Assembly: GCF_056712565.1 (NCBI RefSeq)
Contig: NZ_CM160072.1
Direction: 5' to 3' (one strand)
DNA: 64,000 nt
How positions within the stretch are numbered: the first letter of the stretch is position 1; every line of letters begins with the position of its first letter. Of this stretch, positions 16,101 to 22,100 are shown in pieces. The position numbers were made by a program.

Positions 16101-19100
16101 GGCTTACCGTTTACGCTTTCCAGCACAAAGCGATGATGCTGTAGCTGTTCTGGCGTTACAGCAATTTTGTCACTACTTACACATCCCGCCATCAGCAGGC
16201 TTAGCGCAACAAGCGCGGCTACTTTCTTCATTGTGGTTCTCAATTACTGTTTCTGATTCAGGACTATTTTAAGAATAGAGGATGAAAGGTCTTTGGGGAT
16301 TATCTGAATAAGCTCCCCTGGAATGCAGGGGAGCGGCAAGATTAAACCAGTTCGTTCGGGCAGGTTTCGCCTTTTTCCAGATTGCTTAAGTTTTGCAGCG
16401 TAGTCTGAGAAATACTGGTCAGAGCTTCTGCTGTCAGGAATGCCTGGTGCCCGGTAAACAGCACGTTGTGGCAGGCAGACAAGCGACGGAATACGTCATC
16501 CTGGATCACGTCGTTGGATTTATCTTCAAAGAACAGATCGCGTTCGTTCTCATACACGTCCATACCCAACGAACCAATTTTCTGATTTTTCAGCGCTTCA
16601 ATTGCCGCCTGAGAATCAATCAATGCACCGCGACTGGTATTGACGATCATCACGCCATTTTTCATCTGATCGAAGGCGGCTTCGTTCAACAGATGGTAGT
16701 TTTCCGGTGTCAGCGGGCAGTGCAGAGAGATAACGTCTGATTCAGAGAACAGGGTTGGCAGATCGACATACTCCACACCGAGTTCCAGCGCCGCCGCACT
16801 TGGATACGGATCGAACGCCAGCAGACGCATACCAAAACCTTTCAGAATGCGCAGCATCGCCACACCGATTTTACCGGTACCGATAACGCCTGCCGTTTTG
16901 CCATACATAGTAAAGCCGGTCAGACCTTCCAGAGAGAAGTTAGCGTCACGGGTACGCTGATACGCGCGGTGAATACGGCGGTTCAGCGTCATCATCATAC
17001 CGATGGCGTGTTCAGCAACGGCCTCTGGATCATAGGCTGGAACACGGACTACTTTGAGCCCCAGTTCTTTTGCCGCGTCAAGGTCGACGTTATTGAAACC
17101 GGCACAGCGCAAGGCGATATATTTAACGCCGTGCTTTTTCAGCTCTTCCAGCACCGGGCGGCTGCCGTCATCGTTTACGAAAATACATACCGCTTCGCAG
17201 CCATTGGCAGTTTTAGCGGTTTTTTCCGTCAGCAGAAAGTCAAAAAATTCCAGCTCAAAGCCAAAGGACTCGTTCACCTGTTGCAGGTACTTCTTGTCGT
17301 ACTGTTTTGTGCTATAAACGGCGAGTTTCATAAGACTTTCTCCAGTGATGTTGAATCACATTTAAGCTACTAAAAATATTTTACAAAATTTCAAATATAA
17401 TTGAAAGATATGGCGATATTGAAAAATTCATCAACAACTATGCTTAGTGTAGGCGCAACCTTCAACTGAACGGTTAAACATGCCACAATACCCGTATTGA
17501 ATGCTTAATTTTTCGCTAAATCAGGATATTAACTACCCATGCTGGGTAAATATAAAGCCGTTCTCGCGCTGTTATTACTGATTATTCTTGTGCCGTTAAC
17601 GCTGCTGATGACGCTCGGGCTGTGGGTTCCCACGCTGGCGGGCATCTGGCTACCGCTCGGGACACGTATTGCATTAGATGAAAGCCCACGCATTACGCGT
17701 AAAGGTTTAATCATCCCCGATCTCCGTTATCTGGTGGGAGATTGTCAGCTTGCGCATATCACCAACGCCAGCCTTTCACATCCCAGTCGCTGGTTATTGA
17801 GCGTCGGCACGGTAGAACTTGATTCTGCTTGTCTGGCGAAATTGCCGCAGACGGAGCAATCGCCAGCCGCTCCAAAAACCCTCGCGCAGTGGCAGTCCAT
17901 GCTGCCTAACACCTGGATCAATATCGATAAACTGATTTTTTCTCCCTGGCAGGAATGGCAGGGAAAACTCTCTCTCGCATTAACCTCCGATATCCAGCAA
18001 CTGTGTTATCAGGGCGAAAAAGTTAAATTTCAAGGCCAGCTGAAAGGGCAACAACTTACAGTCAGCGAACTGGATGTCGCCGCGTTTGAAAATCAGCCGC
18101 CGGTAAAACTGGTGGGGGAATTTACTATGCCGCTCGTGCCGGATGGACTTCCGGTAAGTGGTCATGCTACTGCGACGTTAAACTTACCGCAGGAGCCTTC
18201 ACTGGTGGATGCCGAGCTGGACTGGCAGGAAAATAGCGGGCAATTGATTGTGCTGGCACGGGATAACGGCGATCCGTTGCTCGATTTGCCGTGGCAAATT
18301 ACTCGTCAACAATTGACCGTAAGCGATGGTCGCTGGAGCTGGCCGTATGCAGGTTTTCCTTTAAGTGGCCGACTGGGTGTTAAAGTCGACAACTGGCAGG
18401 CAGGGCTCGAGAACGCTCTGGTCAGCGGGCGACTGAGTGTGCTGACCCAGGGGCAAGCGGGTAAAGGCAACGCGGTGTTAAATTTTGGCCCAGGAAAATT
18501 AAGCATGGATAACAGCCAGCTGCCTCTGCAGCTGACCGGTGAAGCGAAACAGGCGGACCTCATTTTATATGCCCGTTTACCTGCGCAGCTAAGTGGAAGT
18601 CTGTCTGACCCAACGCTGACCTTTGAGCCTGGCGCGTTACTTCGTTCAAAGGGAAGAGTCATTGATTCGCTGGACATCGATGAAATCCGCTGGCCTTTAG
18701 CGGGTGTAAAAGTCACCCAACGTGGTGTTGACGGACGTTTGCAGGCCATTTTGCAGGCGCATGAAAATGAACTGGGCGATTTCGTGCTGCATATGGATGG
18801 GCTGGCGAATGATTTTCTCCCTGACGCTGGCCGCTGGCAGTGGCGCTACTGGGGAAAAGGGAGTTTTACACCGATGAATGCCACCTGGGATGTCGCAGGA
18901 AAAGGTGAGTGGCATGACAGCACGATTACGCTGACCGATCTCTCCACCGGTTTCGACCAGTTACAATACGGTACGATGACGGTAGAAAAGCCGCGATTAA
19001 TTCTCGACAAGCCCGTCGTCTGGGGACGTGACGCACAGCATCCCTCCTTCAGCGGCGCTCTGTCACTGGACGCCGGGCAAACGCTGTTCACTGGCGGCAG

Positions 19101-22100
19101 TGTGTTACCGCCATCAACCTTAAAATTTAGTGTCGATGGGCGTGATCCGACGTATTTCCTCTTTAAAGGCGATTTACATGCTGGTGAGATTGGCCCGGTT
19201 CGGGTAAATGGTCGCTGGGACGGTATTCGTCTGCGCGGTAACGCCTGGTGGCCTAAACAATCACTGACTGTATTCCAGCCGCTGGTGCCACCCGACTGGA
19301 AGATGAACTTACGCGATGGTGAACTGTATGCTCAGGTTGCATTTTCAGCTGCGCCTGAACAAGGATTCCGCGCGGGGGGGCACGGCGTATTGAAAGGCGG
19401 TAGTGCCTGGATGCCAGATAATCAGGTTAACGGTGTCGATTTTGTCCTGCCTTTCCGTTTTGCCGATGGAGCCTGGCATCTGGGGACTCGCGGTCCCGTT
19501 ACGTTGCGAATTGCCGAAGTGATTAATCTGGTGACAGCGAAAAATATTACGGCTGATTTGCAAGGTCGTTATCCGTGGACTGAAGAAGAACCATTGCTGT
19601 TGACTGATGTTAGCGTCGATGTGTTAGGCGGTAACGTGCTGATGAAACAATTACGTATGCCGCAACATGACCCGGCGCTGTTGCGGCTGAATAATCTTTC
19701 CTCCAGCGAACTGGTTAGCGCCGTCAATCCGAAACAATTCGCCATGTCCGGGGCATTTAGTGGTGCATTGCCGTTATGGCTAAACAACGAAAAATGGATA
19801 GTGAAAGACGGCTGGCTGGCAAATAGCGGGCCGATGACCTTGCGGCTGGATAAAGACACCGCAGATGCGGTGGTGAAAGACAATATGACCGCGGGTTCAG
19901 CAATTAACTGGTTGCGCTATATGGAAATTAGCCGTTCATCGACAAAAATTAATTTAGATAATCTCGGTTTATTAACCATGCAGGCCAATATTACAGGTAC
20001 CAGTCGCGTTGATGGTAAAAGCGGTACGGTAAATCTTAATTACCATCATGAAGAGAATATTTTTACGCTGTGGCGCAGTTTACGCTTTGGCGATAATCTC
20101 CAGGCATGGCTGGAGCAGAACGCGCGTCTGCCGGGAAATGACTGTCCGCAAGGAAAAGAGTGTGAGGATAAACAATGAAAATTTTACTGGCTGCGTTGAC
20201 GTCATCTTTTATGCTGGTTGGCTGTACGCCTCGCATTGAAGTCGCTGCACCTAAGGAACCGATCACTATCAATATGAACGTTAAAATTGAGCATGAGATC
20301 ATCATCAAGGCAGACAAAGATGTCGAAGAGCTGCTTGAGACCCGTAGCGATCTTTTTTGAGGTGATGATGAAAAGAACATTACTTCTTTGTGCATTTCTT
20401 GTTGGCTTGGTAAGCAGCAATGTAATGGCATTGACTCTGGATGAAGCCAGAACTCAGGGGCGGGTAGGCGAAACATTTTATGGTTATCTGGTTGCGCTGA
20501 AAACAGATGCTGAAACTGAGAAATTAGTAACCGACATCAATGCCGAACGTAAAGCGAGCTATCAACAACTGGCAAAGCAGAATAATGTGTCGGTGGATGA
20601 TATCGCGAAACTCGCCGGGCAAAAGCTTGTAGAACGGGCCAAACCCGGGGAATATGTACAAGGGATAAACGGTAAATGGGTGCGAAAATTTTAATAGCAA
20701 AACCGCAATATCGGGATAACGCTACAGGAGAAGACGATTAATCTATTTTCCGGAAACATTTTTCTCTTTTAATTATAAGGATGAGTTATGTTTCCGCTCT
20801 AATTTATTTATTCGAGTATTGATTTTATACCCTTTTTTCATTAAATAAATATCTATGTGACGCATTTGAATTTATAATTTATATAATATACATAATTTGT
20901 ATGTTTCGCGGGTTTATTTATTTCTCTGTATTATAAATCCAGATTGTCAGAGAATATGTTTGATTAGGTAACAATCTACTGGCAATATTGGACGTCCTCT
21001 ATGTTTTAAATAATCAATTGGTCGGGTCAGGGTATCCGACCTTCTTTATATTCGCCAGAAGGATTTATTATGCAAAGGAAAACTCTATTGTCGGCCTGTA
21101 TTGCATTAGCTCTGAGTGGTCAGGGTTGGGCGGCAGATATTACAGAAATAGAAACCACCACAGGTGAAAAGAAAAATACCAATGTGACTTGTCCAGCAGA
21201 TCCTGGAAAACTCAGTCCAGAAGAGCTTAAACGCTTACCCTCTGAATGCTCCTCTGTAGTCGAACAGAACCTGATGCCATGGCTTGTCACAGGTGCTGCT
21301 ACTGCGTTAATCACAACCTTAGCCATAGTGGAACTAAACGACGATGATGATCATCATCGCAATAATTCTCCACTTCCACCAACTCCACCTGATGATGATT
21401 CAGACGACACTCCAGTTCCTCCAACTCCTGGCGGAGATGAGATAATACCAGACGATGGTCCGGATGATACCCCGACGCCTCCCAAACCGATTGCGTTTAA
21501 TAATGACGTTATCCTCGATAAAACAGAAAAAACGTTAACTATTCGCGATTCAGTTTTCAGTTATACCGAGAATGCTGATGGGACTATTTCTCTGCAAGAT
21601 AGCAATGGGCGTAAGGCGACTATTAATCTTTGGCAGATTGATGAAACGAATAACACGGTTGCCCTTGAAGGGATGAGCGCAGATGGTGCAACGAAGTGGC
21701 AATATAATCACAACGGTGAGCTCGTTATTACGGGCGACAATACCACAGTAAACAACACTGGAAAAACCATCGTCGACGGCAAAGGCGCCACCGGAACTGA
21801 AATCGCGGGTAACAACGCGGTGGTGAATCAGGACGGCGAGCTGGATGTGAGCGGCGGCGGTCACGGGATTGATATCACCGGCGACAGCGCAACTGTGGAC
21901 AACAAAGGCGGCATGACTGTCACCGATCCGGATTCCATCGGTATTCAGATCGACGGCGACAAGGCGGTTGTCAATAAGGACGGTGACAGTGCCATCAGCA
22001 ACGGTGGCACCGGCACGCAGGTTAACGGCGACGAAGCCACCGTGAACAATAACGGCAGCACCACCGTTGACGGCAAGGATTCCACGGGCACCGAGATAAA

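What the first reader, a model, noticed from the sequence alone, without database searches (positions are those of the whole stretch)
17539..20694. ydbH-ynbE-ydbL: AsmA-like envelope protein with two translationally coupled small periplasmic/lipoprotein partners
The ynbE start overlaps the ydbH stop and the ydbL start follows the ynbE stop by 4 nt, implying a stoichiometric complex. YdbH belongs to the AsmA/TamB/YhdP family implicated in phospholipid transport to the outer membrane; the roles of the two small partners are not well defined.
Basis: established knowledge. Interest (0 to 1): 0.3.

Follow-up and report, generated by a model that had tools for sequence, protein, structure and literature searches.

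The report
Known YdbH-YnbE-YdbL lipid-bridge operon

Summary
Three same-strand genes sit exactly where stated: ydbH 17539-20178, ynbE 20175-20360 (ATGA stop/start overlap) and ydbL.

All three match their families strongly and are 99.1%, 100% and 97.2% identical to the K-12 proteins. The operon covers most of the query in 5409 of 5426 complete E. coli genomes.

The order YdbH-like / YnbE-like / DUF1318 and the tight junctions recur in 13 of 13 loci fetched through eight YdbL homologues of 35-59% identity.

- YnbE extends the YdbH groove by beta-strand augmentation and is essential without TamB and YhdP (Kumar 2024).
- YdbL is a chaperone-like protein that binds the YnbE C-terminal helix (De'Ath 2026; PDB 28oj).
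- ydbH-ynbE translational coupling was shown experimentally (Huber 2019, 2023).

A fixed stoichiometric ternary complex is not established: YnbE copy number is unknown and YdbL is dispensable.

Verdict: already known, low interest.

The parts
17401..17427 (+). Candidate sigma-70 promoter of the operon (TTGAAA, 15-nt spacer, AAAAAT) in the ldhA-ydbH spacer
   Evidence: Shimada 2014 (PMC3946193) lists this motif for 'ydbH--ydbL' in a spacer bound by RpoD holoenzyme. It is located in the window. It is a prediction, with no mapped transcription start. My own scan (16-18 nt spacers only) found no + strand promoter in the spacer.
17539..20178 (+). ydbH, 879 aa: inner-membrane-anchored AsmA-like (repeating beta-groove) protein
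   Evidence: ORF. Pfam PF11739 E=1.4e-289, covering residues 14-862. NCBIfam equivalog NF007971, 1400 bits against a cut-off of 824. RefSeq annotation. 871 of 879 residues identical to K-12 b1381.
17557..17625 (+). Codons for the single N-terminal transmembrane anchor of YdbH (about residues 7-29)
   Evidence: The Kyte-Doolittle 19-residue mean peaks at 2.95 at residue 8. No window starting after residue 22 exceeds 1.6.
20164..20168 (+). Shine-Dalgarno GAGGA for ynbE, inside the end of ydbH, 6 nt before the ATG
   Evidence: Sequence. Huber 2019 found the SD of this gene pair strictly essential for reinitiation.
20175..20178 (+). ATGA: overlapping ynbE start and ydbH stop (termination-reinitiation site)
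   Evidence: Sequence. The same -4 overlap occurs in K-12 and in L003, L004, L006 and L007.
20175..20360 (+). ynbE, 61 aa precursor and 45 aa mature: outer-membrane lipoprotein partner of YdbH
   Evidence: Pfam PF13617 E=3e-16. Identical to K-12 YnbE.
20214..20225 (+). Lipobox L-V-G-C (residues 14-17); Cys17 is the lipidated residue and the +2 residue is Thr
   Evidence: Pattern match. A lipobox Cys is present in all homologues examined. Outer-membrane sorting inferred from a non-Asp +2 residue is established knowledge of the Lol pathway.
20262..20288 (+). YnbE residues I30-I38 (ITINMNVKI): the strand that augments the last beta-strand of YdbH
   Evidence: Sequence identical to K-12. Role from AlphaFold-Multimer, proline disruption and photocross-linking in PMC11126948. 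The motif P-I-x-I-N-[ML]-N-[VL]-[KN]-I-[ED]-[HQ] is conserved in distant homologues.
20307..20357 (+). YnbE residues K45-F61: C-terminal helix that binds YdbL
   Evidence: Sequence. NMR and native MS with the E39-F61 peptide in bioRxiv 10.64898/2026.03.16.712125. The C-terminal Phe is invariant in the homologues examined.
20359..20366 (+). Shine-Dalgarno GAGGTGAT for ydbL, overlapping the ynbE stop codon (TGA 20358-20360)
   Evidence: Sequence. In 7 of the 9 homologous loci tabulated (all but L008 and L013) the ynbE stop also runs straight into an SD-like motif (TAAGGAG, TAGGGAG, TAAGGGGG).
20368..20694 (+). ydbL, 108 aa (alternative in-frame start at 20365 gives 109 aa): periplasmic DUF1318 chaperone-like protein
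   Evidence: Pfam PF07027 E=1.1e-31. RefSeq start. PDB 28oj_A 'Probable chaperone-like protein YdbL' E=1.8e-51, covering residues 22-108. 3 substitutions relative to K-12.
20368..20430 (+). YdbL signal peptide (residues 1-21, ending V-M-A before L22)
   Evidence: Sequence. Consistent with the mature construct in PDB 28oj: its match starts at query residue 22, aligned to chain residue 2. The cleavage site itself is inferred.
20752..20795 (+). Hairpin GGAAACAT...ATGTTTCC followed by a T-rich stretch: weak candidate for the operon's terminator
   Evidence: RNA fold, not better than shuffled sequence (z = -0.71), and not called by the terminator scan. Low confidence. The next + strand terminator-like site is at 21020-21041.

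Best explanation
The region is the conserved ydbH-ynbE-ydbL operon of E. coli. [quoted passage not shown] YdbH is anchored in the inner membrane by one N-terminal helix and extends a hydrophobic beta-groove into the periplasm, but it is too short to reach the outer membrane. The lipoprotein YnbE is anchored in the outer membrane by its lipidated Cys17. It adds its strand I30-I38 to the last strand of YdbH (beta-strand augmentation) and so completes the bridge. YnbE can also self-stack in an amyloid-like way. Periplasmic YdbL binds the YnbE C-terminal helix, limits runaway YnbE multimerisation and helps dock YnbE on YdbH. Too much YdbL titrates YnbE away. The gene layout fits this dependence on ratios. 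ynbE is translated by termination-reinitiation at the ATGA overlap, so it depends on ydbH translation. ydbL follows 7 nt (or 4 nt) later, behind a Shine-Dalgarno that overlaps the ynbE stop. Shown here: the anatomy, the family memberships, near-identity to the studied K-12 proteins, and conservation of order and spacing. Shown in the literature: the YdbH-YnbE interaction and its essentiality, YdbL-YnbE binding, and ydbH-to-ynbE coupling. Still inferred: actual lipid transport and its direction, the YnbE copy number, ynbE-to-ydbL coupling, and the promoter and terminator.
For: ORFs and junctions. Family matches: PF11739 E=1.4e-289, PF13617 E=3e-16, PF07027 E=1.1e-31; NCBIfam YdbH equivalog. RefSeq annotation of an identical strain and of K-12. 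Identity to K-12: YdbH 871/879, YnbE 61/61, YdbL 105/108. YdbH substitutions avoid the gain-of-function sites T303, G305, G308 and G456. YdbL keeps R28, E60, R61, L68, K70, N72, A83 and L87. Single N-terminal TM segment, lipobox LVGC with +2 Thr, and a signal peptide. PDB 28oj is YdbL. No + strand terminator-like site lies inside 17539-20694. The locus covers at least 80% of the query in 5409 of 5426 E. coli genomes. A YnbE-like gene sits directly upstream of the DUF1318 gene in 13 of 13 fetched loci, with a YdbH-like gene upstream wherever the contig reaches, and with tight junctions. Literature: PMC11126948, bioRxiv 10.64898/2026.03.16.712125, PMC8593681, PMC12447247, PMC6728339 and PMC10666635.
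Against: No biochemical demonstration of lipid transfer by YdbH-YnbE exists, and the direction is unknown. The predicted YdbH plus one YnbE is still about 180 A against a periplasm of about 250 A, so the architecture is unresolved. My attempt to model the YdbH C-terminus linked to YnbE failed (mean pLDDT 36). The local RNA structure proposed to block independent initiation at ynbE is no more stable than shuffled sequence in my fold (z = +0.96). All experiments were done in K-12 or P. aeruginosa, not in this B2-type strain.
Confidence: 0.93

Rival explanations
1. One reading: the three products form a fixed stoichiometric ternary complex, with YdbL a permanent structural subunit and equal amounts set by translational coupling.
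For: AlphaFold-Multimer and MultiFold2 1:1:1 models place YdbL on the YdbH C-terminus next to YnbE. [quoted passage not shown] The gene junctions are tight and conserved.
Against: YdbL is not needed for growth of cells lacking TamB and YhdP. It is undetectable at native levels, degraded by DegP in vitro unless bound to YnbE, and lethal in excess in a yhdP tamB mutant. YnbE multimerises and its copy number in the bridge is unknown. Coupling of ynbE to ydbL has been suggested but never measured.
Confidence: 0.12
2. YdbH-YnbE is a real bridge, but its main job is not bulk forward phospholipid transport. It could instead serve retrograde or selective lipid movement, or help move lipoproteins or outer-membrane proteins, as proposed for other AsmA-like proteins.
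For: Transport has never been shown biochemically and its direction is uncharacterised. ydbH, ynbE and ydbL single mutants have no phenotype. Titles and abstracts returned propose other AsmA-like proteins in protein or lipoprotein handling (TamB with TamA; GspN).
Against: [quoted passage not shown] Phospholipids accumulate at the inner membrane on YhdP depletion in a tamB ydbH mutant. Multicopy ydbH-ynbE-ydbL suppresses the yhdP tamB defects.
Confidence: 0.1
3. The close spacing is chance. The three genes are merely neighbours without a functional link.
For: 4-nt ATGA overlaps are common between same-strand bacterial genes (abstract of PMC6728339).
Against: Order and spacing are conserved in loci where YdbL is only 35-59% identical. 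A genetic and physical link has been demonstrated. Coupling has been measured.
Confidence: 0.01

Closest known systems
E. coli K-12 ydbH-ynbE-ydbL operon (b1381-b1383), as characterised by Kumar, Davis and Ruiz 2024 and De'Ath et al. 2026
   Same: The gene order, lengths, ATGA overlap and double ATG at ydbL are the same. The proteins are 99.1%, 100% and 97.2% identical, and the upstream ldhA neighbour is the same.
   Different: YdbH has 8 substitutions (N88S, A120S, R156C, V181A, A196T, I493V, V496G, E877D) and YdbL has 3 (K3R, A55T, A89E). None falls at a residue reported as functionally important. One base differs between the ynbE SD and its ATG. The downstream neighbour is a large autotransporter gene instead of feaR.
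TamB-TamA (translocation and assembly module)
   Same: An inner-membrane-anchored AsmA-like groove protein needs an outer-membrane partner to span the envelope, and it is functionally redundant with YdbH.
   Different: The partner there is an Omp85 beta-barrel (TamA), not a 45-residue lipoprotein joined by strand augmentation, and no YdbL-like helper is described in the papers read. Not compared by sequence here.
YhdP
   Same: An AsmA-like paralogue that is redundant with YdbH for growth and lipid homeostasis.
   Different: It is long enough to span the periplasm alone. In P. aeruginosa its C-terminal region fused to YdbH makes YdbH independent of YnbE.
CsgC-CsgA (curli chaperone and amyloid subunit)
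   Same: This analogy is drawn by Kumar 2024: a small periplasmic protein prevents premature runaway polymerisation of an amyloid-like strand-stacking partner.
   Different: There is no sequence or family relationship. The resemblance is in how it works, not in membership. YdbL binds a helix next to the stacking strand and is proposed to act by steric hindrance.
Termination-reinitiation (TeRe) coupled gene pairs such as hyfH-hyfI and astD-astB
   Same: An ATGA overlap with an SD inside the upstream gene. ydbH/ynbE was itself one of the five E. coli test pairs and showed strong coupling with an essential SD.
   Different: None for ydbH-ynbE. The ynbE-ydbL junction has a 7-nt (or 4-nt) gap rather than an overlap and has not been tested.

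Membership tests
YdbH family (Pfam PF11739; NCBIfam NF007971 equivalog) | Full-length profile match above the curated cut-off | tested here: met
   PF11739: 964 bits against a cut-off of 26.3, profile positions 1-892 of 893. NF007971: 1400 bits against a cut-off of 824.
YdbH family (Pfam PF11739; NCBIfam NF007971 equivalog) | Orthology to the experimentally studied K-12 protein in the same genomic position | tested here: met
   871 of 879 residues identical. ldhA lies upstream and ynbE-ydbL downstream in both genomes.
AsmA-like / repeating beta-groove proteins | Single N-terminal transmembrane anchor followed by a large periplasmic domain | tested here: met
   Only one hydrophobic segment is found, at about residues 7-29.
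AsmA-like / repeating beta-groove proteins | Elongated beta-groove fold with a hydrophobic interior | tested here: inconclusive
   My model of the C-terminal 320 residues linked to YnbE, built on 5 sequences, had mean pLDDT 36 and is unusable. The fold is asserted from AlphaFold models in PMC11126948 and PMC8593681. No YdbH structure is in the PDB by sequence search.
AsmA-like / repeating beta-groove proteins | Functional redundancy with YhdP and TamB (synthetic lethality) | not testable with these tools
   Reported for K-12.
YnbE-like lipoprotein (Pfam PF13617) | Profile match above the cut-off | tested here: met
   59.3 bits against a cut-off of 25.8, residues 26-59.
YnbE-like lipoprotein (Pfam PF13617) | Lipobox with an invariant Cys and an outer-membrane sorting residue at +2 | tested here: met
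   LVGC at residues 14-17 with Thr at +2. A lipobox Cys is present in all homologues examined.
YnbE-like lipoprotein (Pfam PF13617) | Alternating polar/non-polar strand I30-I38, and a C-terminal helix ending in Phe | tested here: met
   ITINMNVKI and KADKDVEELLETRSDLF are present. The whole protein is identical to K-12.
YdbL / DUF1318 (Pfam PF07027) | Profile match above the cut-off, and identity to the solved protein | tested here: met
   109.6 bits against a cut-off of 27. PDB 28oj_A E=1.8e-51 over residues 22-108.
YdbL / DUF1318 (Pfam PF07027) | Residues of the YnbE-binding surface (E60, R61, L68, K70, N72, A83, L87; R28 predicted) | tested here: met
   All are present in the window protein. 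G31, G39, N58, R61 and W104 are invariant across 52 family members.
Termination-reinitiation coupled gene pair | Stop/start overlap or very short distance on one strand | tested here: met
   ATGA at 20175-20178. The ynbE-ydbL gap is 7 (or 4) nt.
Termination-reinitiation coupled gene pair | Shine-Dalgarno motif inside the upstream gene at working distance | tested here: met
   GAGGA lies 6 nt before the ynbE ATG. GAGGTGAT overlaps the ynbE stop, and its GAGG core ends 5 nt before ATG 20368.
Termination-reinitiation coupled gene pair | Local RNA structure that blocks independent initiation at the downstream gene | tested here: inconclusive
   The -99 to +30 stretch folds at -30.4 kcal/mol, no better than shuffled sequence (z = +0.96). 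Huber 2019 predicted a stable structure near the translation initiation region.
Termination-reinitiation coupled gene pair | Downstream translation lost when upstream translation is stopped early | not testable with these tools
   Reported for K-12 ydbH/ynbE reporter fusions. Never measured for ynbE/ydbL.
Single operon | No terminator between the genes; one transcript | tested here: inconclusive
   No + strand terminator-like site lies within 17539-20694, and internal promoter-like sites are at chance level. Transcript data are not available here. Papers state co-transcription.

The most novel reading that the evidence does not exclude
The conserved junction design may itself be the ratio-setting device of the system. 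Strictly reinitiation-dependent translation of ynbE would cap YnbE synthesis at or below that of YdbH. The stop-overlapping Shine-Dalgarno of ydbL would tie YdbL synthesis to YnbE, so that YdbL does not outrun YnbE. If so, the gene layout argues that the working bridge holds one or a few YnbE copies rather than a long stack, which bears on the open question of how a bridge of about 180 A spans a periplasm of about 250 A. The evidence does not exclude this, and it has not been tested.
Probability: 0.3. Interest if true: 0.3.

Novelty: already known. Interest (0 to 1): 0.08.

Why it matters
The system matters biologically. It is one of three redundant routes thought to supply phospholipids to the Gram-negative outer membrane, a long-missing step in envelope biogenesis and a possible drug target. 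This window adds nothing new: the locus is a near-identical copy of the K-12 operon. The partners' roles, the interactions, the synthetic lethality, the ternary structure prediction and the ydbH-ynbE translational coupling have all been published between 2019 and 2026. The remaining open questions are YnbE copy number, the direction and proof of lipid flow, and how the YdbL level is set. They cannot be settled from this sequence.

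Tried and rejected
I used the look-up of encoding contigs on eight individual homologues instead.

2. I predicted the structure of the YdbH C-terminal 320 residues joined by a Gly-Ser linker to mature YnbE, on a 5-sequence paired alignment. Mean pLDDT was 36 and pTM 0.21, so the model is unusable and no fold search was run.

3. I folded the ydbH/ynbE junction RNA to look for the structure said to mask the ynbE start. It was not distinguishable from shuffled sequence.

4. I folded the region after ydbL looking for a terminator. There is only a weak hairpin at 20752-20795, not significant.

5. I considered a programmed +1 frameshift at the T6 run before the ynbE stop (CTT TTT TGA) that would fuse YnbE to YdbL. 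I rejected it for two reasons. K-12 has TTTTCTGA there. The YnbE-YdbL fusion proteins in the databases (P0001, P0004-P0007) switch frame or are deleted at different places, as expected from scattered indels or assembly errors.

6. Antisense and alternative-frame ORFs inside the region (147, 137, 104 and 63 aa) have no Pfam match even at E<=1. I treat them as chance ORFs.

7. An Rfam scan found no RNA family in the region.

8. I tried to fetch the Li et al. 2014 synthesis-rate tables to test stoichiometry. The paper is not held.

Full report
**What is there**

The window carries three same-strand genes at the stated coordinates. ydbH runs 17539-20178 (879 aa) and ynbE runs 20175-20360 (61 aa) (sequence). 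The ynbE ATG and the ydbH TGA share the tetranucleotide ATGA at 20175-20178.

After the ynbE stop (TGA, 20358-20360) come two adjacent in-frame ATGs:
- The second, at 20368, gives a 7-nt gap and 108 aa. RefSeq uses this start in an identical strain and in K-12.

The sequence GAGGTGAT at 20359-20366 matches the extended Shine-Dalgarno consensus. It overlaps both the ynbE stop and the first ATG. Its GAGG core sits 2 nt from the first ATG and 5 nt from the second. I therefore infer that 20368 is the more likely start. The mature protein is the same either way, because the signal peptide is removed.

**Identity**

The 3.6-kb stretch is 100% identical to several extra-intestinal and avian pathogenic E. 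coli chromosomes. It matches 5417 of 5426 complete E. coli genomes, and 5409 of them cover at least 80% of the query.

| Protein | Family match | Identity to K-12 |
|---|---|---|
| YdbH | PF11739, E=1.4e-289; NCBIfam equivalog NF007971 | 871/879 |
| YnbE | PF13617, E=3e-16 | 61/61 |
| YdbL | PF07027 (DUF1318), E=1.1e-31 | 105/108 |

The YdbH substitutions avoid the known gain-of-function sites T303, G305, G308 and G456. YdbL keeps every residue reported at the YnbE-binding surface.

Simple sequence tests give the expected features:
- YdbH has one N-terminal membrane helix.
- YnbE has the lipobox LVGC, with Thr at +2.
- YdbL has a signal peptide ending VMA.

The solved structure 28oj, 'Probable chaperone-like protein YdbL', aligns to residues 22-108. 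No YdbH structure is in the PDB by sequence search.

**Is the arrangement more than chance?**

An ATGA overlap alone is unremarkable. To test conservation I collected the YdbL family, which has 1281 clusters at 50% identity with E<=0.001. I then fetched the contigs encoding eight members that are 35-59% identical to the window protein.

- In all 13 loci a PF13617 lipoprotein gene lies directly upstream of the DUF1318 gene. The one unclear case, L005, was resolved.
- Wherever the contig reaches far enough, a YdbH-like gene lies upstream of that.
- The ydbH-ynbE distance is -4 nt in four loci besides the window. The others are -8, -14, +2 and +9 nt.
- The ynbE-ydbL gap is 9-12 nt in most loci. 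L005 has a 1-nt overlap and L008 a 37-nt gap.
- In 7 of the 9 tabulated homologous loci the ynbE stop runs straight into a Shine-Dalgarno-like motif.

These starts are gene-caller choices, so exact distances carry some uncertainty.

YnbE homologues keep the lipobox cysteine, the strand motif P-I-x-I-N-[ML]-N-[VL]-[KN]-I-[ED]-[HQ] and a C-terminal Phe. The tight layout is therefore under selection.

**Transcription**

No + strand terminator-like site lies between 17539 and 20694. Promoter-like matches inside the genes are at chance level: 4 found against 5.3 expected. Shimada 2014 reports RpoD holoenzyme binding in the ldhA-ydbH spacer. That paper lists TTGAAA-15-AAAAAT for 'ydbH--ydbL', and the motif sits at 17401-17427 here. 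This is a prediction, not a mapped start.

After ydbL there is only a weak hairpin at 20752-20795. No Rfam family lies in the region. Opposite-strand and alternative-frame ORFs have no family matches.

**How it works**

The mechanism comes from the literature on the near-identical K-12 proteins.
- YhdP, TamB and YdbH are redundant, and losing all three is lethal.
- YdbH is predicted to be about 180 A long, against a periplasm of about 250 A.
[quoted passage not shown] YdbL is not.
- AlphaFold-Multimer, proline disruption and in vivo photocross-linking support YnbE strand I30-I38 adding onto the last strand of YdbH and extending its hydrophobic groove. YnbE also multimerises.
- YdbL limits that multimerisation. 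It binds the YnbE C-terminal helix directly (NMR, native MS, crystal structure). It is lethal in excess in a yhdP tamB mutant unless both YdbH and YnbE are also raised. DegP degrades it in vitro unless it is bound to YnbE.
- P. aeruginosa YdbH also needs YnbE.
- Translational coupling of ydbH to ynbE by termination-reinitiation was measured with reporter fusions. Downstream translation was nearly abolished when upstream translation stopped early, and the SD was strictly essential. Efficiency fell with distance.
- Kumar 2024 invokes ynbE-ydbL coupling, but it has not been measured.

**What remains inferred**

- Lipid transfer itself and its direction.
- The number of YnbE copies in the bridge.
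- ynbE-to-ydbL coupling.
- The promoter and terminator.

My own attempts to add evidence were inconclusive:
- The junction RNA folds no better than shuffled sequence (z = +0.96).
- A linked YdbH-C-terminus/YnbE model on five sequences was unusable (pLDDT 36).

The identification, family assignment and coupling geometry are right. Two statements fail.
- 'Roles of the two small partners are not well defined' is out of date.
- 'Implying a stoichiometric complex' overreaches. The ratio clearly matters, but YnbE copy number is unknown. YdbL behaves as a dispensable, low-abundance assembly factor rather than a fixed subunit.

**Novelty and score**

This is already known. It is a textbook-status locus in a near-identical copy, so interest is low.

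The most novel reading left open is that the conserved junction design is itself the ratio-setting device. It would cap YnbE synthesis at or below YdbH and tie YdbL to YnbE. That would favour a bridge with few YnbE copies. It is plausible and testable, but it is a refinement within a known system.

Noticed in passing
window 21070-29384 (+); frameshift near 25525: The gene after ydbL is a very large autotransporter adhesin gene. In strain ZJ3920 it is one 8316-nt CDS. In the window a single base is missing (GGCAACAG becomes GGCACAG), which splits it into ORFs 21070-25545 and 25560-29384. This is either a pseudogene or a sequencing error.
   Followed up: partly
window 21790-25061: The autotransporter carries a long tandem array (period 441 nt, built of 147-nt sub-units, about 6 and 21 copies). 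GC is about 58% against about 40-53% in the 1-kb windows on either side. The array also creates a 1035-aa spurious ORF on the opposite strand.
   Followed up: no
window 20695-21069, compared with K-12 (L002 4708-4878): In this B2-type strain ydbL is followed by the autotransporter gene. In K-12 it is followed by feaR-feaB-tynA. The locus therefore sits at a strain-variable junction, and the intergenic stretch here is AT-rich: the 1-kb window 20000-20999, which also includes ynbE and ydbL, is 40% GC.
   Followed up: no
window 4528-4645 (+), 11607-11727 (+), 44587-44650 (-): Three known small RNAs lie elsewhere in the window: FnrS, MicC and RydC, all above Rfam gathering scores.
   Followed up: no
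window 20287-20694 (+); proteins P0001, P0004-P0007: The ydbL reading frame stays open upstream to 20287, inside ynbE. Several database proteins of 155-173 aa are YnbE-YdbL fusions. Their frame switches or deletions fall at different points, so they look like scattered indels or assembly errors rather than a programmed event.
   Followed up: partly
L006 822-2301 and L007 2-787: In one lineage the gene(s) before ynbE are much shorter. In L006 a 226-aa ORF weakly matches the first ~125 positions of the YdbH profile, and an overlapping 271-aa ORF matches positions 699-889. L007, cut at the contig end, shows only the C-terminal ORF. This could be a 'mini-YdbH' of about 490 aa lacking the middle of the groove, possibly frameshifted in L006. 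Elsewhere YdbH-like lengths range from 781 to 976 aa.
   Followed up: partly
L015 2200-4804 compared with L014 2198-4804: In two related complete genomes with the same ldhA-ydbH-ynbE-ydbL-hrpA neighbourhood, YdbH is intact (868 aa) in one and split into 347 + 555 aa in the other. This suggests occasional loss of ydbH.
   Followed up: no
E. coli genome collection: Nine of 5426 complete E. coli genomes gave no match to the operon. Five matches lie on records labelled as plasmids, and at least one genome has two copies. None of these was examined.
   Followed up: no
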